22,369 bases of DNA. It comes from a virus (Duplodnaviria; Heunggongvirae; Uroviricota; Caudoviricetes). The stretch lies in the IMG/VR virus record IMGVR_UViG_647533160_000004, positions 1 through 22,369 of that record, one strand, 5' to 3'. Below are positions 4,216-19,972 of this stretch, one piece after another. The translations under genes and the position numbers were made by a program. The notes under the pieces were generated by a model that was not told where the DNA came from, ran no database searches, and saw only the letters and a program-made list of their open reading frames with translations. How positions within the stretch are numbered: the first letter of the stretch is position 1; each line of letters opens with the position of its first letter.

Positions 4216-4512
4216 TTATACCTCTGAATCAATATCAACCTGGTGGTGAGCAATTGTTTCAACCATGTACCGGATGTGTTCTGCCATGCGCTCCTGAAAC
4301 TCAACATCGTCATCAAACGCACGGGTAATGGCTTTTTTGCTGGCCCCGTGGCGTTGCAAATGATCGATGCAGAGTGATTCAAACAGGTGCTGAGGAAGAC
4401 CTTTTTCCATGTCGTCTGCCAGTTCTGCCTCTTTCTCTTCACGGGCGATCTGCTGGTAGTGACGCGCCCAGCTCTGAGCCTCAAGACGATCCTGAATGTA
4501 ATAAGCGTTCAT
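4216..4512 (-). CDS. gam: Gam, RecBCD inhibitor (98-aa form)
   Basis: Translation [60 protein letters not shown]... matches the short form of lambda Gam; directly upstream of bet. Confidence 0.9.
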
Positions 4513-4588
4513 GGCTGAACTCCTGATAATGGCTGTGAAAATAGCGCCCGCGAAATGCCAGGCTGATTAGGAAAACAGGAAAGGGGGG

Positions 4589-4795
4589 TTAGTGATTCAG
4601 GCCGTTACCGCGTCCGTCGAGAAAAACTTCTACGAGCAAATCACGGGTATAAGTGCGCTCGATGCCGCGATGCAGATAAAGCCGTCCGCGTAAATTAGCT
4701 GATGCAGTCCAGGTACCATCTTTGTGTTTGACCAGCATTCCTGGCATGACCGCGCCGCGATTAACGGTCTGCGTTCCGTAATGTTGATGAACCAT
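4589..4795 (-). CDS. Hypothetical protein in the kil position (68 aa from internal ATG; track ORF extends to 4879)
   Basis: ATG at 4795 is preceded on the minus strand by AGGAG with a 5-nt spacer; it is the first gene of the leftward operon, directly upstream of gam. The Kil assignment is positional only. Confidence 0.35.
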   Translation of the reverse strand: MVHQHYGTQTVNRGAVMPGMLVKHKDGTWTASANLRGRLYLHRGIERTYTRDLLVEVFLDGRGNGLNH

Positions 4796-5069
4796 AAAAA
4801 CTCCTGCCCGTAAGCTGGGCTGCTGAACATATAGAGACTTCTGCGCGTATTCAGGCGGTGGATGGCCGCCGGTTGCCATAACTAAGCCGCCTCGTTGAAG
4901 CGACTAAGGTATGAAATGTTGAGTTGATTTCAGCTGGTCACACCGACGTTCACGCGTCCGTTTCACCCCTCGCACTCCCCGAAGCCTGCTGAAATTCAAA
5001 CTGCGGATCTAAGCGGTCATCGCAACGGTGAATCAGGTAGTTGCCGTATCGTTGTGTTGTTGCGACATG

Positions 5070-5190
5070 GTGATAATAGCTATTGCTATTGGCTGCATCA
5101 ATACTTGTTGCTATTGATTGATGTGTTTTGATATTAACTGTTTGATAGCAAAAAGAATTAATTTTGTGACTTGCATCGCATAGCGATAAC
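5070..5190. promoter_or_regulatory. Left operator/promoter region (oL/pL-like) with repeated TTGCTAT half-sites
   Basis: Perfect 10-bp palindrome AATAGCTATT (5075..5084), TTGCTATTG copies at 5083..5091 and 5108..5116, inverted ATAGCAA at 5145..5151, and ATCGC-ata-GCGAT inverted repeat at 5175..5187. The same TTGCTATT motif recurs in the cI-cro intergenic region. Confidence 0.45.
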
Positions 5191-5240
5191 TGAAGGGAGG
5201 ATGTGGTGGTTTTTCGAACGGTTTGTGTGATGAGGGGACA

Positions 5241-5266
5241 AAAGAAAACCCGGCACGGTGGCCGGG
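5241..5266 (-). terminator. Rho-independent terminator ending the cI-cargo transcription unit
   Basis: Minus strand CCCGGC-caccgt-GCCGGG hairpin followed by TTTTCTTTTG, starting 5 nt after the stop codon (5271..5273) of the ASCH gene. Confidence 0.6.
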
Positions 5267-5270
5267 ATTC

Positions 5271-5648
5271 TTACGCAGGTAGGTAAAGATATGATTGTGG
5301 TGGCTTAATATTACTACCTAGAGCAGAGATAGGAATTGGTTCTTTATATCTTTCCACTTCACCAATTTTTATTGCGTAGGCCTTTTCTCTACCTGAATAA
5401 TATGAGTCATAAAATTGCTTAGAAATACCTGCGTGTTTTTCCGTCTTTTTCCAAAGAGATTCCGGTTCGTCACTTAGTATTGATTCAATACGGAATTGAC
5501 CAACAACTTTACCTAATGGCATCGTGGCATAAATAACAACGGTGCTAATTTGCGGATTTTTGAATATACCTTTACGAAACTCGAACCGCTTTGTTCCGTT
5601 CAATATTTTTTCTGCAAACTCAGGCTTAATGGATAATAAAACTTTCAT
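5271..5648 (-). CDS. ASCH-domain protein (PUA-like fold), 125 aa
   Basis: N-terminal MKVLLSIKPEFAEKILNGTKRFEFRKG carries the ASCH signature G-x-K-x-x-E-x-R. AT-rich; overlaps the upstream gene by 23 nt, suggesting translational coupling. Confidence 0.7.
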   Translation of the reverse strand: MKVLLSIKPEFAEKILNGTKRFEFRKGIFKNPQISTVVIYATMPLGKVVGQFRIESILSDEPESLWKKTEKHAGISKQFYDSYYSGREKAYAIKIGEVERYKEPIPISALGSNIKPPQSYLYLPA

Positions 5649-6699
5649 TTATCTTGCCTAACTCGATGATCTTTAAGAACTGCTCATTTGTGAGTTTAAA
5701 GTGACTCCATCGGAATGCACGCGAACCATTTAGCCCCACATGATCTATTAAAATAGCACGATTGGGTCTCTTTGGCAAAGACAGATTGTATGTGAATCTT
5801 ATAATGAAAGGGTATCGACGTTCTTTATAGATTTTTCTGAGTTCATCTTCAGAAAATACGCTAAAACGAATACAATAGTCTACAAAACTATCTTCGCTTA
5901 AAAATTCAGAAATATTTTTTACGCTCTCAACTACACATAATGTACTGGCTACAGAACGATAGCGAGCTGGCCCTTTTTTGTCTCCGGTTCTATAGATGAC
6001 AATGATATCTCCTCTTTTCATTCCCATCACAGAACGCATTCCACATATGTAAATTTTATGAATGCTGTTAGCATGGGATATATCTTTGACAATATCTGGT
6101 GATTCATTTACAAGTTTTGAATCAGGGAATAGTCTAGTGTGATATTCGGGATAAATCGCCAGTAAATATTTGTTGGCCCTTGATGTCATTATTCGAGGGT
6201 AATCTAATAAAATATCACCATAAGGCTCATGCAAAGACCTCGCATATACAAACTCTTTCCCGTTATGTGTTTCTTTTTCACCATGAATGTAAAATCCGTA
6301 CGTTTGGAAAAGTTTTATTAGATGGACGTGTTTGTCGAAAACAGTAACATAAATATCATCAGATTTTGATGAAAATGCATGGTCAAACGCTTTTTTTAGA
6401 AATCGTTGTCCGCGAAGGGTGCCTTTAGATTCAAATTTGAATGTTCCTATCTTTAGATGACGTCCTGGTGGGAGCGCTGGATTAATGTCATTTGCATCAT
6501 CATTTTCTTTTAGATACATAAAACCTTCGATTTTATGCTTGTCATCATAGAGCACATAAGCTGATTCTCCTTCTCTGGCTTTTTTTTCTAACCAAAGAGG
6601 AAACTCTTTATAATCTTTTTTTAAAGAGTCAAAAAATGGGTCATTGTGATCAAAATCAGAGAATTTCTCATATTTTAAAGTATCCATTAAGTTCTCCAT
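5626..6699 (-). CDS. Two-domain cargo protein: N-terminal GNAT-like acetyltransferase region plus C-terminal possible PUA-like region (357 aa; alternative start at 6687)
   Basis: AT-rich ORF directly downstream of cI on the same strand. Residues ~40-160 (...AYVLYDD...KIGTFKFESKGTLRGQRFLKKAFDHAFS...IYVTVFDKHVHLIKLFQTYGFY...) resemble a GNAT fold; domain calls are by eye and unverified. The second ATG has a GGAG Shine-Dalgarno 6 nt upstream. Confidence 0.55.
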   Translation of the reverse strand: MENLMDTLKYEKFSDFDHNDPFFDSLKKDYKEFPLWLEKKAREGESAYVLYDDKHKIEGFMYLKENDDANDINPALPPGRHLKIGTFKFESKGTLRGQRFLKKAFDHAFSSKSDDIYVTVFDKHVHLIKLFQTYGFYIHGEKETHNGKEFVYARSLHEPYGDILLDYPRIMTSRANKYLLAIYPEYHTRLFPDSKLVNESPDIVKDISHANSIHKIYICGMRSVMGMKRGDIIVIYRTGDKKGPARYRSVASTLCVVESVKNISEFLSEDSFVDYCIRFSVFSEDELRKIYKERRYPFIIRFTYNLSLPKRPNRAILIDHVGLNGSRAFRWSHFKLTNEQFLKIIELGKINESFIIH

Positions 6700-6767
6700 T
6701 CTAAAATGAATAATTAAGTTGTTTTACTGAATGAGCACAATGCCCGGTTGATAATTTTTAATTGGTA

Positions 6768-7460
6768 CTATCCATGCTTCCTATACGTCTGCGGCATGCT
6801 CCCAATAACTTTCCCGAAGATAAATACCCGGTTCATCTCATCTTTCTCGATCGGGTCCCACGGTGAGTAGCTTTTGTTATCAGAGATAACCAGCAGCTTA
6901 TCCTTCATCATTTGCAGGCGCTTTACATGGGCTGTGTCGTCGTACAGAAACGCATAGATACCATCACCGTCGAAAGATTTAACCGTGATATCAACGAATA
7001 GAAGATCACCAGGTTCAATCGTTCCTGACATGCTGTCACCGCGTACGTTAATGATGCGGATATTTTCTGCCTTCCTACCATCGAACATGTGACGAGCATC
7101 GTCAAACGAGTACTCAACCGAGCGTAGAACTTCTACAAACTCACGGTTGATGACTCCCGGCCCGGCACTCACTTCTATATCAAGAACGTCAATCTTGAAG
7201 TATTTGGGATGGTTGGCAGTAGGCTTCCCTAATTGTTGACCGTCATTTCTCATCGGGCCTATGCCTGATGAGAGCCACTCTGTTCGAACACCCAATGCAT
7301 TAGCTATTTCAACAATTTTTGTTGAGCCGCGCGCGTTGCCGCTTGTCAGTCTCCAGATTGTGGGTTGAGCTACGCCAGACGCCTTTGCAAGAGCGCCTTG
7401 AGACATTCCAGATTGTTCCATCGCTAGGTTTAAGCGATCAGCAAGAGTTTCTTTTTTCAT
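6768..7460 (-). CDS. cI: CI-like prophage repressor, N-terminal HTH plus C-terminal S24 (LexA-like) autopeptidase domain (231 aa from first ATG; track ORF to 7496 starts at TTG)
   Basis: HTH region ...MSQGALAKASGVAQPTIWRLTSG... and C-terminal ...VRGDSMSGTIEPGDLLFVD...HVKRL... (Ser nucleophile in GDSM, downstream Lys) typical of cleavable lambdoid repressors. Divergent from cro; the TTG extension would overlap the operator palindrome, so the ATG at 7460 is preferred (possibly leaderless). Confidence 0.85.
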   Translation of the reverse strand: MKKETLADRLNLAMEQSGMSQGALAKASGVAQPTIWRLTSGNARGSTKIVEIANALGVRTEWLSSGIGPMRNDGQQLGKPTANHPKYFKIDVLDIEVSAGPGVINREFVEVLRSVEYSFDDARHMFDGRKAENIRIINVRGDSMSGTIEPGDLLFVDITVKSFDGDGIYAFLYDDTAHVKRLQMMKDKLLVISDNKSYSPWDPIEKDEMNRVFIFGKVIGSMPQTYRKHG

Positions 7461-7570
7461 AAGTTTTAATTTATACGCTTGCGTATTGATGGTCAAAACA
7501 CGTTTTGCTATTGTTATGGTTAATACGCATTGCTATTATTTATTCATTGTAATACCAATAGGAATTAATA
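7461..7570. promoter_or_regulatory. Right operator/promoter region (oR, pR/pRM-like) between cI and cro
   Basis: Perfect inverted repeat ATACGC-tt-GCGTAT (7473..7486), related TAATACGCATTGCTATTA (7521..7538), and TTGCTATTG (7504..7515) in the 110-bp divergent intergenic region. Confidence 0.5.
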
Positions 7571-7798
7571 ATGACAAATCAAACCATTCAACTCGCAATC
7601 AGTATTACAGGTAGTCAAAAACGACTGGCAGATCTATGCGGTGTAGCCCAGCCCACTGTTTGGCGTTGGCTACACGGTGGCGGAATTGATGCCCGCTATG
7701 TAATGAAAATTGTCTCAGCCACTGGTGGAAAGATTAAACCAGCAGATATTCGTCCCGACCTCGCACCATTGTTTAACGCGAGTAATTCTGCCGCCTAA
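7571..7798 (+). CDS. cro: Cro-like HTH regulator (75 aa)
   Basis: Small ORF divergent from cI; HTH-like segment ...QKRLADLCGVAQPTVWRWLHGG...; AGGA about 8 nt upstream of the ATG. Confidence 0.75.
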   Translation: MTNQTIQLAISITGSQKRLADLCGVAQPTVWRWLHGGGIDARYVMKIVSATGGKIKPADIRPDLAPLFNASNSAA

Positions 7799-7822
7799 TC
7801 TGCGGCGTTAACTGATAAGGCA

Positions 7823-8368
7823 ATGACTATGCAACCACTTACATACCAACAGACTAGCGGATTTAGCCCGACTGCGGTGATAAATCGTTCTCAAACAAAA
7901 CAGGCGCCAGGCCACGAAAAAATCCGTGATGCCGTTCGCGCCTGGTCGGCTGCAGATAATCAGGATGTTGTTGCCGCACTCATTGTGAATGAGTATCGGG
8001 AGCAGGGCGGCGGCACCATCGATTTCCCTGATGATGTCAGCCGTGCACGCCAGAAGCTGTTCCGCTTCCTCGATAACAAATTCGATTCTGAAAAATACCG
8101 AAATAACGTGCGTGAACTGACCCCGGCAATTCTGGCGGTACTACCGCTGGAATATCGCGGCCACCTGGTTGAGCAGGATAGCTTCATGGCTCGGCTGGCT
8201 GAAATGGAAAAGGAACTCAGTGAGGCAAAACAGGCTGTCATTCTCAACGCACCACGCCACCAGAAACTGAAGGAGATGAGTGAAGGCATTGTGTCGATGT
8301 TTCGTGTGGACCCGGATCTGGCTGGTCCACTGATGGCGATGGTCACCACCATGCTGGGGGCAATATGA
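7823..8368 (+). CDS. Hypothetical early-right protein in the cII position (181 aa)
   Basis: ORF between cro and O on the same strand; no recognised catalytic motif. Functional role inferred from position only. Confidence 0.5.
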   Translation: MTMQPLTYQQTSGFSPTAVINRSQTKQAPGHEKIRDAVRAWSAADNQDVVAALIVNEYREQGGGTIDFPDDVSRARQKLFRFLDNKFDSEKYRNNVRELTPAILAVLPLEYRGHLVEQDSFMARLAEMEKELSEAKQAVILNAPRHQKLKEMSEGIVSMFRVDPDLAGPLMAMVTTMLGAI

Positions 8369-10748: not shown

Positions 10749-12167
10749 TTAGAAAATAATGTTTGCTATATCCGAGATAGCATTTAAAGAACCTCTGTGG
10801 TCACTTCCTGTTTTAGGTAAAATATAGGAATATCGAGGGTCTTCATTATATGTTAACTTCCAGTGTTTTCCATCGCTTGACGCACTAAAACCTAAGTCCT
10901 TTAAACTTCTTTGTGTTGCGCTATCCATGCTTCTGTACCCTGTTAAAGTCCTTTTAAGTAATTGGCGGCGACTCTCGGTTTCTTTATTGTATTTATTATT
11001 GGCAATTAGGGATGATAAGATATGATAGCTTCTACCAAATTCATTTTTGTTTTTTATGGCAGTTTTTAGTGCGTCAATAATTATATTTTTGATTTCTCCA
11101 TCAAAAAAGTCAGTCTCTTCACCTGCATTAAGCACAATGCTTCCTTGGGCTGAAGCTTGTGATTGAAGAGTGCGTACTCTGTGCTCTAAAGCGGAGATCT
11201 TATGCTTAAGATCTTCTATTTGGTCATCTTTCGCAACATTATCGGCTTCGTAAAGCGCCATCAGTTCGCGTGTGTATTCTCCTCTTTCTTTGAGTGAGTT
11301 AATAGAATCTTTCGTTTTTCTGGTTTGTATCTCACTCCATCCACTATCTGAGACAGGAGCCATTGTAGTCGTAGCTCTTACAACATCATCAAATAACTCA
11401 TCTTCAAATTCTTTTGCGGTTTTCTCACCACGGCGATAAAAACTGATATTTTGACCTCGTGGCCAATAGATACCAACAGCACCAGCATAGGCATTTTTAG
11501 CATTTGTCTCATTTTTTAGCTTAATAGAAAATAGTCTATTGCTAGGCTCAATTAATACATGTGCTAATCCGCATACCTTTCTTGCAAGGCGTTCTGGGAT
11601 GATATTGTGAGCATGTTCATTGAAAAAATACTTGGAGCTAACGTATATTATTGGTAGTCTGTTGTCAGTTTCACCATTTATAACTTTAGCTGCTATATTT
11701 AAATGTTCATCAGTATCATCTAAGGAATGAGGTTCGACTGACACCTTGAAAATATCATCAAGACCACCAGAAAATTTATCAATCAATCTCATAACAACCA
11801 ATGGTTTCTTGGGTTGTGGGGCTAGATAAGCTGCATCTTGGCTTACAACGCTAGATTCCACCTGAATCCACATGGTATCAGTTTTGAGATTTTTATTAAT
11901 TGAAATATCTGTTACCCATTTGTGTGGCTCAGATATTTTCGAATACCTAAAACAGCCTAAACTAGTATCTTTGTTTTTATAAGTTATTATATCAATTCTT
12001 TCATTTTTAGACTCTATGAAGTGCTCCTCGCTTTTATAATCACATACTAATTGTGCTGGAATAAAAGTTGTATGTGGTGAGTCGTTTACCCAAGAAAAAC
12101 ATTCATTAAAGATCTCAGCTAGAGATGTGGAATTTGAAACATAAAAACCAGTTGAGAAATATTTCAT
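10749..12167 (-). CDS. Orphan 472-aa cargo protein, predicted cytoplasmic, with a C-terminal coiled-coil-like region; function unknown
   Basis: Long uninterrupted AT-rich ORF; AAGGA Shine-Dalgarno 6 nt upstream of the ATG at 12165..12167. No Walker or obvious nuclease motifs by eye. Heptad-like charged region ...EDLKHKISALEHRVRTLQSQ... Inserted between ren and the NinB-like ORF. Confidence 0.7.
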   Translation of the reverse strand: MKYFSTGFYVSNSTSLAEIFNECFSWVNDSPHTTFIPAQLVCDYKSEEHFIESKNERIDIITYKNKDTSLGCFRYSKISEPHKWVTDISINKNLKTDTMWIQVESSVVSQDAAYLAPQPKKPLVVMRLIDKFSGGLDDIFKVSVEPHSLDDTDEHLNIAAKVINGETDNRLPIIYVSSKYFFNEHAHNIIPERLARKVCGLAHVLIEPSNRLFSIKLKNETNAKNAYAGAVGIYWPRGQNISFYRRGEKTAKEFEDELFDDVVRATTTMAPVSDSGWSEIQTRKTKDSINSLKERGEYTRELMALYEADNVAKDDQIEDLKHKISALEHRVRTLQSQASAQGSIVLNAGEETDFFDGEIKNIIIDALKTAIKNKNEFGRSYHILSSLIANNKYNKETESRRQLLKRTLTGYRSMDSATQRSLKDLGFSASSDGKHWKLTYNEDPRYSYILPKTGSDHRGSLNAISDIANIIF

Positions 12168-14744: not shown

Positions 14745-15833
14745 CTATTCGCTATAAGTTAATGTTGGTTTTGAAAGTCTTTTGGATATTGTTTTTCCGA
14801 TATTAATGAATGGAGTTTCAATATATTTATAAATAAAGAATGATAAGAACAAGCTAAGAGCAATAATGAATGAAAACTTAGAGAACCCAGGTTTTTCATA
14901 AAGCGGAATGAAATCCTTAAAATTAATTAAAAATAGCATTACTATCGCATGGGATAAATACAGAGAGTAAGAGATATCACCTAGCTTACTGAGTATTTTA
15001 TTTTCCCTTAATCCGAAGTTAACTTCATAAAGTAAAACTCCCGTAATTATGGAGGCTGCCCACAATCCGAAGTTTAAAGGGCCATGACCAAATCTGAATT
15101 GATAAAAATATGAGCAAACACCAAATGAAACCAAAAGGAATGATATCGCCTTTGCGTTTTTTATATATTTAAATTTTCTGTGTATTATATACAGAAACAT
15201 CCCATAAACGAATTCTAACAGCATGGGTGATGACATTAAGTTTAGAAAGCCAATATGCCAATGACCTGTATCACCAATCGTAAACTTACTTGATAGAGAA
15301 AGGCTGTTGGAAAATTTCAACTGTATGAGAAGTAGCGGGACTATCAATGCAATAACTGATATTAATAATCTGTTTTTATGGCTCAGCGATATTGCAAGCA
15401 TAAAAATGAAATAAAAATAGACTTCAAAGGTTAATGTCCATGCTGGATAAAGCACGTTGTATCCGAAGAATGGCGCTTCTGAATAATAGTCCAGGTGAAG
15501 CAGAAACAATGAACGCAATAATTCACTTTCGGTGAAGACTGGGTTCAATAAAAAGAATAAGATTGTGCAAATGAAAAATACAGGGTAAATCCTGAAAAAA
15601 CGCCTGGTCATAAAGTTAATAGGGGAATTTGTTTCTTTTTTTTGACTCGATAACATTATTATAAATCCACTTATAATAAAAAACAGATCAACCCCAAAAC
15701 CACCACTAATAAACAATAAATCACCTAGATCTTTTTGTGCGTAAACTTCATTTAGGTATTGTTTATTGTGATATGCAACAACGAGTAATGCTGCTACACC
15801 TCGCAAATAGTGAATTGATTTTACCTTCTTCAT
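14745..15833 (-). CDS. Acyltransferase-3 family integral membrane protein (OafA/Oac-like), putative O-antigen/LPS acetyltransferase (362 aa)
   Basis: Very AT-rich, highly hydrophobic ORF with about 10 predicted transmembrane segments and N-terminal ...YLRGVAALLVVAYH...GVDLFFIISGFII... typical of acyltransferase family 3. Confidence 0.8.
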   Translation of the reverse strand: MKKVKSIHYLRGVAALLVVAYHNKQYLNEVYAQKDLGDLLFISGGFGVDLFFIISGFIIMLSSQKKETNSPINFMTRRFFRIYPVFFICTILFFLLNPVFTESELLRSLFLLHLDYYSEAPFFGYNVLYPAWTLTFEVYFYFIFMLAISLSHKNRLLISVIALIVPLLLIQLKFSNSLSLSSKFTIGDTGHWHIGFLNLMSSPMLLEFVYGMFLYIIHRKFKYIKNAKAISFLLVSFGVCSYFYQFRFGHGPLNFGLWAASIITGVLLYEVNFGLRENKILSKLGDISYSLYLSHAIVMLFLINFKDFIPLYEKPGFSKFSFIIALSLFLSFFIYKYIETPFINIGKTISKRLSKPTLTYSE

Positions 15834-16871: not shown

Positions 16872-18854
16872 TTGCTCAACAAGTATAATGGAGTTCCCGT
16901 GGATACAGCAGAACATGATGGCAAATTTGCTTGGGCTAGTTTTTATGAGGCTTTTGCCAACGCGTTACTGACTTGGCGAAATCGTAGAGATGAATTAGTC
17001 AAAGGTATTCATCTAATTGCCTCAGGTGTGGAAGGAATGTCCCATCTGCAGGACAAATCTATTATGGGAGAGATCTTTCCCTTAAAAGACATTTGTCCGT
17101 TTACTACTATGGGCTTGTTCAATCGTAACTTGACCGATAGCAATCGCAAAATTATTGCTGCCAAGCTAGCGAATTTGTTGGGCGTGAACGAACCGATTCC
17201 TGACTCCTTTGCCGGAATCCCGCTGTTGAATAACCAAAAATCTTGGTTCTTTGGTTATGAAAAGTCACGCGACCCTAATGACATTGAATGCTTGTGGGAA
17301 ATGTTCTCGCAGGCAATGACCTTTGCGGATAACCAGAATACTAACTCTGCAGACTTCACTGCCGCATATGACATTGCTTCTACAGTAATGAATGTCGGTT
17401 GGAATCTCACCATGGGGTTGTACTGGACCCGTCCTTGGTTCTACCCTACTTTAGATAGCCAGTCGCAGTATTACATTCAGACAGTGTTAAACATTAAGAT
17501 CATTAAAAACGGGGCAAAAGGTCGCTGTAGTGGACAAAGTTACCTGAGTCTTATGCGGGCGCTGAACGAGGTCTTTACCCAACCAAACTATCCGGTTCAT
17601 TCTTTCCCAGAACTTTCTTTATCAGCGTGGAATACAGATCTTAGCCAGTCTAAAGATGAGGTGGCAAATAGAACGTGGAAAGCCTCTTTACTGAATAAAA
17701 TTAAGGCGTTATGCCTGAAAAAAAATGGCCCTTATTTCACTGCTTCGGAGTTGGAAGAAAACTACTTGGACGTATTCAAGGTAGAGCATCCTGAGAGCAA
17801 AACAGTTACAAGCTCAATCTACTTTTATCTACAGAAACTATGCAATGATGATGAGTTAAAGTCCCTTGAGTCCGGAAATTATGAATACCTGAATTTTGAG
17901 AAAAACGAATCCCAGACGATAACTGAGGAAACTGTCGAAGAGAGTGCGCCGTTGCCAAAACTCACTCACGTTCCTTATGACATCAGTCATCTGGTGCAGG
18001 ATGGCTGTTTCTTGGAAGAGGCTAAGATCCAACTCACACTTCAGCGCCTGATCGACAAGAAAAACCTGATATTACAAGGACCACCCGGAACTGGAAAAAC
18101 CTGGTTAGCGCGACGTCTGGCGTACTGCTTGATGGGAGAAAAAGCACCTGAGCGTATTAGCGCGGTGCAATTTCACCCGAACCTCTCTTACGAAGACTTT
18201 ATTCGCGGCTGGCGTCCAGGTAAAGAAGGGCAATTGACGCTAATTGATGGACCTTTTGTAAATGCAATCAAAACTGCAGTCAATAATCCTACCTCGAAAT
18301 ATGTGGTGATAATTGAAGAGATTAATCGTGGCAATCCGGCGCAAATCTTCGGTGAAACACTCACGTTGATGGAAGCAGATAAACGCACGCCGACTGAGGC
18401 ATTATCTCTTTCCTATCCTAAAAATGATGATGAAAAAATATACATTCCTGAGAATCTATATATCATCGGTACGATGAATATTGCAGACCGCTCACTCGCA
18501 CTACTTGACCTAGCGCTGCGCCGTCGTTTCGCGTTTATCGATCTAAAGCCAGCTTTTAATGACGCGTGGAGAAACTGGGTAAATTATAATTACGCAATTG
18601 ATTTTGACATGTTAGCATTCATCAAATCTCGACTGACGGTACTTAACGATATGCTGGCAAAAGATGTTACCTTAGGACCACAGTTTTGTATCGGTCACAG
18701 CTATGTCACCCCAGCTATCGGCCAAAAAATCAACGATGCCCAGGCTTGGTATGAACAAGTCGTTGATACAGAGATCTGCCCTTTGCTCGCCGAATATTGG
18801 TTCGATGCTCCAAATAAAGTCGATGAAGCCAGAAAAGTGTTATTAGCAAAATGA
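16872..18854 (+). CDS. McrB-like AAA+ GTPase with a long (~390 aa) unassigned N-terminal region (660 aa; alternative GTG start at 16899)
   Basis: C-terminal module has Walker A LQGPPGTGKTW, Walker B VVIIEEINRG and the McrB-type motif IGTMNIADRS. The N-terminal ~390 aa show no motif I can assign. GGAG lies 5 nt upstream of the GTG at 16899. Confidence 0.85.
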   Translation: MLNKYNGVPVDTAEHDGKFAWASFYEAFANALLTWRNRRDELVKGIHLIASGVEGMSHLQDKSIMGEIFPLKDICPFTTMGLFNRNLTDSNRKIIAAKLANLLGVNEPIPDSFAGIPLLNNQKSWFFGYEKSRDPNDIECLWEMFSQAMTFADNQNTNSADFTAAYDIASTVMNVGWNLTMGLYWTRPWFYPTLDSQSQYYIQTVLNIKIIKNGAKGRCSGQSYLSLMRALNEVFTQPNYPVHSFPELSLSAWNTDLSQSKDEVANRTWKASLLNKIKALCLKKNGPYFTASELEENYLDVFKVEHPESKTVTSSIYFYLQKLCNDDELKSLESGNYEYLNFEKNESQTITEETVEESAPLPKLTHVPYDISHLVQDGCFLEEAKIQLTLQRLIDKKNLILQGPPGTGKTWLARRLAYCLMGEKAPERISAVQFHPNLSYEDFIRGWRPGKEGQLTLIDGPFVNAIKTAVNNPTSKYVVIIEEINRGNPAQIFGETLTLMEADKRTPTEALSLSYPKNDDEKIYIPENLYIIGTMNIADRSLALLDLALRRRFAFIDLKPAFNDAWRNWVNYNYAIDFDMLAFIKSRLTVLNDMLAKDVTLGPQFCIGHSYVTPAIGQKINDAQAWYEQVVDTEICPLLAEYWFDAPNKVDEARKVLLAK

Positions 18855-19972
18855 CGACAATAACCGGGAGTGAGCAACATACAGCATCACGTATTCCCAT
18901 GCGAAATATCTGGATGCTGATGCTGTACGCTTCAGATCTGTTTCGTCAGTTAGGGCGCAATCAGATCGCAGTAGAAGATAACCCAGCAGAAATCCCCGAC
19001 CTGGTGGCGACAATCCTCCTTCATGAGATTACGCTGCGCCGACGTCGCAATTTAAATATGGGATACCAAACTTGTCATGCGGCCCTGAACCGGGTGAGAG
19101 GGCGCATTGACATACTGTATACTGCCAGTCATCAACTACTGGAACGGGGACAGGTTGCCTGCCATTTTCAAGACATAACCCTCAACACCCCCCGAAATCG
19201 CTATGTTCGCTGTGCGTTAGAACGTCTGGCCTCAATCATAGTGAAACCGTCTTTGGCGGCAGATTGCCATTTTATGGCAATATCACTTCGCCGTGAGGGG
19301 ATAAATGGAGGATATCCTGCCCCCCACGAATTACCCTCAGTGTGGCGTTTTGGACGCCATGATGCCGCAGATAAACCGATGGTCGATGCCGCACGATTAG
19401 CTTTTGAACTGCTGATGCCGACCGAAGATCAAGGCCAATATCTTTTACCTGCGCCCTCAAATAACCTTTACTGGATGAGAAGACTATTTGAAAAAGGTAT
19501 CGCTGGCTTATATCGTGTACACCTTGCCAAAACAACTTGGCAGGTCTCTGCAGGGAAAGAGCTGAAATGGGCGTTGAGCGATCAAAGTGCAGGTAGTGCA
19601 GAGATTTTCCCGACAATGAAGTCAGACATTATTCTGGAACACAAGACTGCCCAGCGGCGTATTATTATCGATACCAAATTTAATTCGATTCTGACAAAGG
19701 GTTGGCATCGGGAGCAATCACTACGTAATGGCTATATTTATCAGCTATATACCTACCTTAGAACACAGGAGAACAAGACGGATCCGCTTTCGCTCAATGC
19801 CGCTGGTCTTCTACTTCATCCAGCTGTTGGCTATATGCTTAATGAGTATGTTGTCACTCAGGGACATAAGATCCATTTTGCTACAGTAGATATGACGGTA
19901 GATGCTAAAGCAATTAAAAAACAATTGCTGGCAATAGCCCATGATTGTGCAGGAGTCGCGGTTGATGACTAA
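18851..19972 (+). CDS. McrC-like endonuclease subunit (PD-(D/E)xK), 373 aa
   Basis: Start overlaps the McrB-like stop (ATGA, 18851..18854). C-terminal ...KSDIILEHK...RRIIIDTKF... fits a PD-(D/E)xK nuclease core; size and pairing are as in McrBC systems. Confidence 0.8.
   Translation: MTTITGSEQHTASRIPMRNIWMLMLYASDLFRQLGRNQIAVEDNPAEIPDLVATILLHEITLRRRRNLNMGYQTCHAALNRVRGRIDILYTASHQLLERGQVACHFQDITLNTPRNRYVRCALERLASIIVKPSLAADCHFMAISLRREGINGGYPAPHELPSVWRFGRHDAADKPMVDAARLAFELLMPTEDQGQYLLPAPSNNLYWMRRLFEKGIAGLYRVHLAKTTWQVSAGKELKWALSDQSAGSAEIFPTMKSDIILEHKTAQRRIIIDTKFNSILTKGWHREQSLRNGYIYQLYTYLRTQENKTDPLSLNAAGLLLHPAVGYMLNEYVVTQGHKIHFATVDMTVDAKAIKKQLLAIAHDCAGVAVDD

What the first reader, a model, noticed from the sequence alone, without database searches (positions are those of the whole stretch)
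5241..6767. AT-rich two-gene cassette (GNAT-like/PUA-like protein + ASCH protein) in the rexAB position downstream of cI
Two translationally coupled genes (23-nt overlap) sit directly downstream of the cI-like repressor on the same strand and end in a clean intrinsic terminator. This is the slot where lambda carries the rexA-rexB abortive-infection pair, expressed in the lysogen with cI. The cassette is visibly more AT-rich than the flanking Red and immunity genes, indicating separate acquisition. The small protein has the ASCH signature GxKxxExR; ASCH/PUA-like folds bind modified or acetylated nucleobases. The large protein has a GNAT-like N-terminal region and a possible second PUA-like domain. 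An acetyltransferase paired with a base-reading or deacetylating module, constitutively expressed from a prophage immunity operon, is a plausible undescribed anti-phage or toxin-antidote system.
Basis: partly seen in the sequence, partly recalled or inferred. Interest (0 to 1): 0.8.

Follow-up and report, generated by a model that had tools for sequence, protein, structure and literature searches.

The report
GevTA acetyltransferase–ASCH prophage toxin–antitoxin cassette
The two genes downstream of the prophage repressor are real and sit where lambda keeps rexAB, but they are identical to a pair already named GevT toxin / GevA antitoxin, so this is a known module whose chemistry I could not establish.

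Summary
Two minus-strand genes overlap by 23 nt: 353/357 aa at 5626-6687/6699 and 125 aa at 5271-5648. They lie between a cI-type repressor and the oL/pL operators and end in a GC-stem/T-run terminator. GC is 0.34-0.37 against about 0.50-0.53 in the flanks.

Structure prediction shows the large protein is a GNAT acetyltransferase fused to a PUA-like barrel. The small protein is an ASCH protein with an invariant GxKxxExR motif.

The "undescribed" claim fails.
- Both proteins are 100% identical to the CDSs annotated "GevT toxin" and "GevA antitoxin" in phage PhiR47_2 (PV340567.1).
- They match the PADLOC candidate system PDC-M11 (E 2e-133 and 7e-52).
- GNAT-EVE + ASCH operons in prophages were predicted to be toxin-antitoxin systems in 2013 and 2020.

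The pair is obligate: 164 of 169 surveyed loci have the ASCH gene overlapping downstream. It occurs in 275 of 5426 complete E. coli genomes, and it recurs after phage repressors and beside known defence genes.

GevA's closest solved relative is the Zymomonas ssRNA-binding RNase ZmASCH, not the ac4C deacetylase YqfB, and the YqfB nucleophile Thr is Glu in GevA.

Verdict: an already known system. Its target and its neutralisation mechanism remain unresolved here.

The parts
5239..5266 (-). Intrinsic terminator ending the cI-gevT-gevA transcription unit (6-bp all-GC stem, 6-nt loop, T-run). It is the functional equivalent of lambda's terminator after rexB.
   Evidence: The stem starts 4 nt after the gevA stop codon.
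5271..5648 (-). gevA: a 125-aa ASCH-domain protein, annotated as an antitoxin.
   Evidence: Pfam ASCH 2.5e-8. PADLOC PDC-M11B 6.8e-52. 100% identical to GevA of PhiR47_2. AF2 pLDDT 96.2. Foldseek TM 0.90 to ZmASCH.
5626..5648 (-). 23-nt overlap between the end of gevT and the start of gevA. Translational coupling is inferred from it.
   Evidence: Exactly the same 23-nt overlap occurs in 105 of 169 related loci, and some overlap occurs in 164.
5626..6687 (-). gevT: a 353-aa protein with an N-terminal GNAT acetyltransferase fold (about residues 5-160 of the 357-aa ORF) and a C-terminal PUA-like/ASCH-like barrel (about residues 170-357). It is annotated as a toxin. An alternative upstream ATG lies at 6699.
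6688..6767 (-). cI-gevT spacer. No terminator-like and no promoter-like site was detected in it, which is consistent with read-through from cI.
   Evidence: Co-transcription is an inference.
6768..7460 (-). cI-type repressor (HTH + Peptidase_S24), the first gene of the presumed operon.
   Evidence: RefSeq start. The C-terminal half is identical to PhiR47_2 cI, but the DNA-binding N-terminus differs.
5073..5162 (.). oL/pL-like region: three operator-like copies sharing TTGCTATTG and a promoter-like site (TTGATG-17-TATTAT) reading leftward toward kil.
7467..7542 (.). oR-like region with the same operator motif, lying between cI and the YdaS-type cro.

Best explanation
This is the GevTA module. 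It is a horizontally mobile two-gene cassette carried as a lysogen-expressed accessory gene set (a "moron") in the rexAB-equivalent slot of a lambdoid prophage. Here the prophage is cryptic and integrated at icd.

Shown here:
- GevT is a GNAT-fold acetyltransferase fused to a PUA-like barrel.
- GevA is a free-standing ZmASCH-type ASCH protein.
- The two genes are essentially never separated, and they overlap.
- The cassette lies between cI and oL/pL with a terminator only after gevA.
- The same pair recurs behind two unrelated repressor families and next to known defence systems.

Inferred:
- cI, gevT and gevA are co-transcribed from the maintenance promoter, so the lysogen makes both proteins constantly.
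- GevT is a growth-arresting toxin. Its PUA-like domain docks it on a nucleic acid, most likely RNA or tRNA, and its GNAT domain acetylates an amine there. By analogy with tRNA-acetylating GNAT toxins, the target would be an aminoacyl-tRNA or a base.
- GevA holds GevT in check. Because GevA is a structural paralogue of GevT's own targeting domain, and its nucleic-acid cleft residues are invariant, I favour neutralisation by competing for or occupying the same ligand, or by pairing with that domain. I do not favour a labile type II-style antitoxin.
- Infection by another, probably temperate, phage upsets this balance and aborts the infection.
For: Identity and naming:
- 100% protein identity to the CDSs annotated GevT toxin / GevA antitoxin.
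- The record belongs to a phage panel cited to Brenes & Laub 2025.
- PADLOC PDC-M11A/B match.

Folds:
-.
- Profile match of GevA to ZmASCH at 5e-18 over its full length. ZmASCH residues Y47 and S128 correspond to the invariant Y40 and S119.

Obligate pairing:
- The same 275 E. coli genomes hold both genes.
- 164 of 169 loci have an overlapping downstream ASCH gene. Three more have it nearby in convergent orientation, and one is cut by a contig end.

Toxin-like asymmetry:
- The only two IS-disrupted E. coli copies seen are both hit in gevT.

Context:
- The pair lies behind S24 cI (6 loci) or 186-type CI (4 loci) in 80 species-level loci, and is followed by an N gene in Pantoea.
- It lies beside CRISPR I-F, a SNIPE-domain protein and SIR2 in V. 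cholerae.
- Neighbours elsewhere include RM, Gabija, Thoeris and DRT genes.

Operon layout.

Prior prediction as a toxin-antitoxin system.
Against: - No experiment on this pair could be read. The paper behind the GevT/GevA names is not in the library. Toxicity, antitoxicity and any anti-phage phenotype therefore rest on an annotation line.
- PADLOC's PDC systems are explicitly untested candidates.
- The acetyl-CoA motif is degenerate, and the usual catalytic Tyr position is Phe131.
- The gene order is toxin first, and the antitoxin is very well folded and slowly evolving. Both are unlike classical type II GNAT/RHH systems.
- Two IS insertions are too few to carry weight.
- Most of the 80 species-level loci have no recognisable phage or defence neighbour within two genes.
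Confidence: 0.62

Rival explanations
1. Nucleic-acid base-modification system. GevT acetylates a base in DNA or RNA (for example an exocyclic amine, ac4C-like) as a mark. GevA reads or removes that mark. The pair would then protect the prophage's or host's nucleic acid, or tag invading DNA, rather than act as a toxin-antitoxin.
For: - Iyer et al. 2013 proposed base acetylation for this architecture, as reported.
- Both proteins carry PUA/ASCH-type modified-base-reader folds.
- An ASCH protein, YqfB, does hydrolyse N4-acetylcytidine.
- PIN-bearing relatives sit inside type I RM operons.
Against: - GevA has Glu23 where YqfB needs its nucleophile Thr24. It matches YqfB only at TM 0.58 and 13% identity.
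- No acetylated base is known in E. coli DNA (my own knowledge).
- The depositors call the large protein a toxin.
Confidence: 0.12
2. Pure addiction or stabilisation module. GevTA is a selfish toxin-antitoxin that keeps the immunity region, and hence the cryptic prophage, from being lost. It has no role against other phages.
For: - The cassette is intact and at least 99% identical in 275 E. coli genomes.
- One of these is this heavily deleted cryptic prophage at icd.
- The pair is very widely spread across phyla at 45-50% identity, which suggests selfish mobility.
Against: - The pair repeatedly sits in slots that hold defence cargo: behind the repressor and in the V. cholerae defence island.
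- It was found by guilt-by-embedding in RM/BREX/DISARM loci.
- It is annotated in a phage set assembled for a study of prophage-encoded defence.
Confidence: 0.15
3. Small-molecule acetyltransferase moron. GevT acetylates a polyamine, antibiotic or metabolite for the benefit of the lysogen, and the ASCH protein is an accessory or regulator.
For: The best sequence and Foldseek matches of the GNAT domain are PaiA, a spermidine/spermine acetyltransferase, and SpeG-like enzymes.
Against: - The enzyme is fused to a nucleic-acid-binding-type barrel with many invariant basic and aromatic residues.
- It is obligatorily coupled to an RNA-binding-type ASCH partner.
- It is annotated as a toxin.
Confidence: 0.05

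Closest known systems
GevT/GevA of Escherichia phage PhiR47_2 (GenBank PV340567.1; phage panel of Brenes & Laub, Cell Host Microbe 2025)
   Same: Both proteins are 100% identical. The position is the same: between cI and kil/pL. The DNA is 99.5% identical over the cassette.
   Different: The adjacent cI has a different DNA-binding N-terminal domain (82% identity overall). The window copy sits in a cryptic prophage rather than an inducible one.
PADLOC phage-defence candidate PDC-M11 (Payne et al. 2024 preprint, guilt-by-embedding)
   Same: Both genes match the A and B models almost end to end: 2.1e-133 over 347 of 357 profile positions, and 6.8e-52.
   Different: PDC systems are untested candidates. 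Other PDC-M11A sub-models are longer (444-501 positions), consistent with N-terminal extensions such as PIN, which this protein lacks.
(PIN)-GNAT-EVE + ASCH operons (Iyer et al. 2013; Bell, Wolf & Koonin 2020)
   Same: The architecture is the same: GNAT fused to a C-terminal PUA-superfamily domain, an ASCH gene alongside, and an optional AAA_17 ATPase. The PIN-less form is typical of prophages of gamma-proteobacteria.
ZmASCH (PDB 5GUQ/5GUS), Zymomonas mobilis ASCH protein with weak Mg-dependent ssRNA RNase activity
   Same: GevA aligns over its full length (E 5e-18, 33-34% identity, TM 0.90). GxKxxExR, Y47 and S128 are conserved.
   Different: K53 of ZmASCH aligns to the invariant Gly46 of GevA, with a Lys one position later. 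No RNase activity has been tested for GevA. I could not check ZmASCH's genomic partner.
GNAT/RHH toxin-antitoxins that acetylate aminoacyl-tRNA (TacT, AtaT, KacT, ItaT)
   Different: - No specific sequence relationship.
- The antitoxin is ASCH, not RHH/DUF1778.
- The gene order is reversed.
- GevT carries an extra PUA-like domain.
- The substrate is unknown.
Lambda rexA-rexB
   Same: Same genomic slot and presumed expression logic: downstream of cI, upstream of oL/pL, terminator after the second gene, and a two-gene lysogen-expressed cassette.
   Different: No homology. RexAB works through a membrane ion channel (my own knowledge), whereas GevTA proteins are soluble enzyme-like folds.

Membership tests
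GevTA / PADLOC PDC-M11 | Protein A matches the PDC-M11A model, and protein B matches PDC-M11B. | tested here: met
   E 2.1e-133 and 6.8e-52, near full length. 100% identity to the annotated GevT and GevA.
GevTA / PADLOC PDC-M11 | The two genes are adjacent, on the same strand, and co-inherited. | tested here: met
   23-nt overlap in the window. 164 of 169 related loci overlap. Identical sets of 275 E. coli genomes hold both genes.
GevTA as a toxin-antitoxin system | The large protein is toxic alone and is neutralised by the small one. | not testable with these tools
   Only the GenBank product names and two IS insertions, both in gevT, bear on this.
Anti-phage defence system | Reduces plaquing or burst of some phage when present. 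| not testable with these tools
   The context is suggestive. PDC entries are untested. The naming paper could not be read.
GNAT acetyltransferase superfamily | GNAT alpha/beta fold. | tested here: met
GNAT acetyltransferase superfamily | Acetyl-CoA pyrophosphate-binding motif Q/R-x-x-G-x-G/A. | tested here: inconclusive
   The motif aligns to K92-G-T-L-R-G97. Only the last Gly is canonical, and it is invariant. No ligand docking was possible.
ASCH domain (PF04266) | Pfam model above the gathering score, and the GxKxxExR motif. | tested here: met
   35 bits versus a cutoff of 21.2. G18, K20, E23 and R25 are invariant.
YqfB-type N4-acetylcytidine amidohydrolase | Thr-Lys-Glu catalytic triad with Thr24 as the nucleophile. 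| tested here: not met
   The position K+3 is Glu23 in GevA, invariant in 50 homologues. The T24A mutant of YqfB is inactive. The structural match is only TM 0.58. The register rests on the identical K-x-x-[T/E]-x-R spacing, and I take YqfB's sequence from memory.
EVE domain (PF01878) in GevT | Match to the EVE profile or to EVE structures. | tested here: not met
Lambda RexAB | Homology to RexA or RexB. | tested here: not met
   No such family appears among the Pfam, PHROG, PADLOC or NCBIfam hits. Only the genomic position is shared.

The most novel reading that the evidence does not exclude
GevA is a free-standing paralogue of the toxin's own targeting domain. It neutralises GevT as a decoy: it occupies the same RNA or modified-base ligand, or it forms a pseudo-dimer with the GevT barrel. 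GevT kills by acetylating a nucleic-acid target rather than a protein or small molecule. An antitoxin that mimics the toxin's substrate-recognition module would, as far as I know, be a new neutralisation principle, and nucleic-acid acetylation would be a new immune effector chemistry.
Probability: 0.15. Interest if true: 0.65.

Novelty: already known. Interest (0 to 1): 0.27.

Why it matters
About 5% of complete E. coli genomes carry this exact cassette, including O157:H7, UPEC 536 and SE15. Relatives at 45-50% identity span many phyla, yet no biochemical mechanism could be found in the literature available here. The useful outputs are these.
- The finding should not be counted as a discovery.
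- The ASCH partner is ZmASCH-like, not a YqfB-like deacetylase.
- The toxin's C-terminal domain is a structural paralogue of its own antitoxin.
- An unannotated protein family of about 340 aa is a frequent third neighbour.

These points sharpen the experiments that would resolve how an acetyltransferase-based prophage module works.

Tried and rejected
- Literature on the name. Searches for GevT/GevA/GevTA/GevAT returned only unrelated papers. The paper behind the names, Brenes & Laub 2025, is not held. The five citing papers I opened say nothing about Gev.
- PDC-M11. It appears only as a list item in one preprint. The PADLOC source preprint does not discuss it individually.
- Rfam. A scan of 4300-8000 gave only sub-threshold eukaryotic snoRNA and miRNA noise.
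- A put-like antitermination RNA in the N-less pL leader. Folding 4890-5070 gave z = +0.99, no better than shuffles, so I rejected this.
- Sequence homology between GevA and the GevT C-terminal domain. hhalign found only a 29-column match at 25% probability. The relationship rests on structure.
- YqfB-type deacetylase reading of GevA. Rejected on the nucleophile residue and the weak structural match.
- The Aeromonas 250-aa and Vibrio 506-aa upstream genes as conserved third components. They are lineage-restricted.

Full report
**1. What is in the sequence**

The finding's coordinates hold two minus-strand ORFs, 5626..6699 (357 aa) and 5271..5648 (125 aa). They overlap by 23 nt.

The large gene more probably starts at the second ATG, at 6687, giving 353 aa.
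- That codon has a GGAG six nt upstream, and the first ATG has none.
- Most homologues are about 353 aa.
- RefSeq annotates 353 aa.

Directly upstream on the same strand is an HTH + Peptidase_S24 repressor at 6768..7460.

Four nt after the small gene's stop codon lies a stem-loop with six G-C pairs followed by TTTTCTTTTG. The scan finds no excess of terminator-like sites over shuffles. The argument therefore rests on its position, and on the absence of any terminator-like or promoter-like site in the 80-nt cI-gevT spacer.

GC content falls to 0.34-0.37 across the cassette. It is 0.50-0.53 in the Red genes and 0.46-0.50 in cI.

Operator-like repeats sharing TTGCTATTG occur on both sides of the cI-cassette block.
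- One set lies at 5075-5162, next to a leftward promoter-like site.
- The other lies at 7467-7542, between cI and a YdaS-type cro.

The cassette therefore lies inside the immunity region between cI and oL/pL, which is where lambda carries rexA-rexB. Every descriptive element of the finding is confirmed.

**2. What the proteins are**

*Small protein.*
- It passes Pfam's ASCH threshold.
- G18, K20, E23 and R25 form GxKxxExR, and all four are invariant in 50 homologues.
- Its AlphaFold2 model is very confident (pLDDT 96.2).
- It superposes on the Zymomonas mobilis ASCH protein at TM 0.90 and 33-34% identity.
- The sequence profile matches the same protein over its full length at E 5e-18.

ZmASCH binds nucleic acids and shows weak Mg-dependent ssRNA cleavage. 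Y47, K53 and S128 contribute to that activity. Y47 and S128 correspond to the invariant Y40 and S119 here. K53 falls on the invariant G46, with a Lys one position later.

*Large protein.*
- It has no Pfam hit, but its model is good (pLDDT 87.7).
- Foldseek agrees, with PaiA as the best GNAT match.
- A profile search also reaches PaiA at 1.4e-5.

The acetyl-CoA loop aligns as KGTLRG against the canonical Q/RxxGxG/A. It is recognisable but degenerate.

**3. It is already named and catalogued**

- PADLOC's library matches the two proteins to PDC-M11A (2.1e-133) and PDC-M11B (6.8e-52).
- Megablast finds the cassette at 99.5-100% identity in eight phage records (seven phages). In Escherichia phage PhiR47_2 the CDSs are annotated "GevT toxin" and "GevA antitoxin". 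Both proteins are 100% identical to the window's.
[quoted passage not shown] That paper is not in the library, so I could not see what was measured.
- Bell, Wolf and Koonin (2020) described a distinct cluster of EVE proteins fused to GNAT, almost always with an ASCH gene and often with an AAA_17 ATPase. The PIN-less form is common in prophages of beta- and gamma-proteobacteria. They predicted these operons to be toxin-antitoxin systems and credit Iyer et al. 2013 with the first description.
- PADLOC's PDC entries are 145 untested candidates, found because they are embedded in BREX, DISARM or type I RM loci.

"Undescribed" is therefore wrong. "Gev" plausibly stands for GNAT-EVE, but that is my guess.

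**4. Distribution and linkage**

In 5426 complete E. coli genomes, 275 carry gevA and 275 carry gevT. These are the same number of genomes, always chromosomal, at 99% identity or more in all but one case. Only two disrupted copies were seen, one with IS1 and one with IS5. Both insertions are in gevT. That is the direction expected for a toxin, but n = 2.

Homologues number more than 1600 clusters for GevT and more than 2400 for GevA. They reach Bacteroidota, Firmicutes, Verrucomicrobia and others at 45-50% identity.

I surveyed 169 loci: 80 species-level genomes, 79 viral contigs and 10 loci fetched earlier.
- An ASCH ORF lies directly downstream, on the same strand and overlapping, in 164.
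- The overlap is exactly 23 nt in 105 of them.
- One more (L112) has it downstream on the same strand after a 148-nt gap.
- Three Vibrio/Photobacterium loci have it nearby in convergent orientation.
- One locus is cut by the contig end.

**5. Context elsewhere**

- In Klebsiella the pair sits between a 186-type CI repressor and the integrase of a P2/186-like prophage.
- In Aeromonas it sits between an S24 cI and the integrase.
- In a Pantoea prophage it is followed by an N antiterminator gene, the exact lambda layout.
- In Vibrio cholerae it is joined by an AAA_17 ATPase, in an island with type I-F CRISPR genes, a SNIPE-domain protein and a SIR2 protein.

Among the two genes on either side in 80 species-level loci:
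- S24 repressors occur 6 times.
- 186-type CI repressors occur 4 times.
- Integrases occur 5 times.
- An AAA_17-like ORF lies within 2.5 kb of gevT in 13 of the 80 loci.
- PADLOC recognises type I and type III RM, Gabija GajB, Thoeris ThsA, DRT, RmrA, SoFic and mads components.

Most loci, however, have no recognisable phage or defence neighbour at that distance. The association is real but not overwhelming.

**6. Mechanism**

*Shown here:* the folds, the obligate overlapping pairing, the operon-like layout, and the recurrent cargo-slot position.

*Inferred:*
- The genes are co-transcribed with cI, giving constitutive expression in the lysogen.
- GevT is a toxin. Its PUA-like barrel docks on a nucleic acid, most likely RNA or tRNA, because PUA/ASCH folds and ZmASCH bind RNA. 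Its GNAT domain acetylates an amine there.
- GevA neutralises GevT.

GevA is a rigid, slowly evolving domain. Its cleft residues are invariant, and it resembles GevT's own targeting domain. I therefore favour competition for the same ligand, or pairing with the barrel, over a labile type II-style antitoxin.

YqfB's nucleophile Thr24 is essential. The equivalent position in GevA is an invariant Glu. The structural match to YqfB is poor.

*Rivals:*
- A base-acetylation marking system, as proposed by Iyer et al. 2013.
- A purely selfish addiction module.
- A small-molecule acetyltransferase, as suggested by the PaiA similarity.

None of these is excluded without experiments.

**7. Verdict**

What remains open, as far as I could determine, is its substrate, its trigger and the way GevA neutralises GevT.

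Interest is low to moderate. Novelty: already known.

Noticed in passing
window 1-22369 (= E. coli VCSW5 NZ_CP082355.1 2737302-2759670): The window is a cryptic lambdoid prophage at the icd attachment site. It runs int, xis, exo, bet, gam, kil, gevA, gevT, cI, cro, cII-like, O, P, and then truncated ybcN and tail-fibre pseudogenes. There are no head, tail or lysis genes. An icd pseudogene fragment marks the far end.
   Followed up: partly
window 4880-5270: There is no N-like (or Nun-like) ORF between the oL/pL region and kil; the longest ORFs there are 21-32 aa. The roughly 180-nt leader does not fold better than shuffles (z +0.99). How the left operon is antiterminated, if at all, is unexplained. 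The same N-less leader occurs in phages 4A7, D2, 1W, PhiR68_2, PhiR70_1 and others.
   Followed up: partly
window 16872-19972 (+): An McrBC-like pair: a 660-aa AAA_5 ATPase with an uncharacterised N-terminal region of about 380 aa, plus a 373-aa McrC-family protein. This is a second defence-type locus at the distal end of the same cryptic prophage.
   Followed up: partly
window 10749-12167 (-): An AT-rich (GC about 0.33-0.38) 472-aa ORF just after the replication genes. It has no Pfam family and only a weak PADLOC match to HEC-07 (1.2e-9). It is a possible further accessory or defence gene.
   Followed up: no
window 14745-15833 (-): An AT-rich Acyl_transf_3 family acyltransferase (2.6e-34), of the type used by prophages to O-acetylate surface polysaccharide. 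It lies next to a tail-fibre fragment and a degraded recombinase gene.
   Followed up: no
window 7571-8368 (+): The cro and cII positions are occupied by YdaS-type (9.6e-15) and YdaT-type (7.6e-30) proteins, not by lambda Cro and CII homologues.
   Followed up: no
window 6768-7460 vs L001 6571-7260: The repressor is a mosaic. Its C-terminal roughly 135 residues, together with the downstream gevTA cassette, are identical to PhiR47_2. Its DNA-binding N-terminal domain is different, which implies a recombination breakpoint inside cI. The cassette therefore travels with the cI C-terminal half across immunity types.
   Followed up: partly
L005 4909-5976, L008 4987-5991 and 11 of 80 species-level loci (e.g. 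L017, L019, L021, L029, L050, L069, L076, L080, L083, L084): An uncharacterised protein family of about 335-355 aa lies directly upstream of gevT in 16 loci, from Enterobacterales to Bacteroidales and Sinorhizobium. It has no Pfam or PADLOC match, and the Klebsiella and Haemophilus members are 28% identical. It may be an optional third component or a habitual neighbour. It is absent from the window.
   Followed up: partly
L022, L026, L031 (Vibrio / Photobacterium): A variant layout: the ASCH gene (with an AAA_17 ATPase gene in L022) is encoded convergently downstream of gevT instead of overlapping it. A 506-523-aa protein with weak ZorA-like similarity lies immediately upstream in L022 and L031.
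   Followed up: partly
downstream neighbours in two of the 80 species-level loci (alignment A4): A second, longer PDC-M11A-type gene (model PDLC04421, E 6e-122) lies within two genes of the GNAT-PUA gene. Two subtypes of the family can therefore sit side by side.
   Followed up: no
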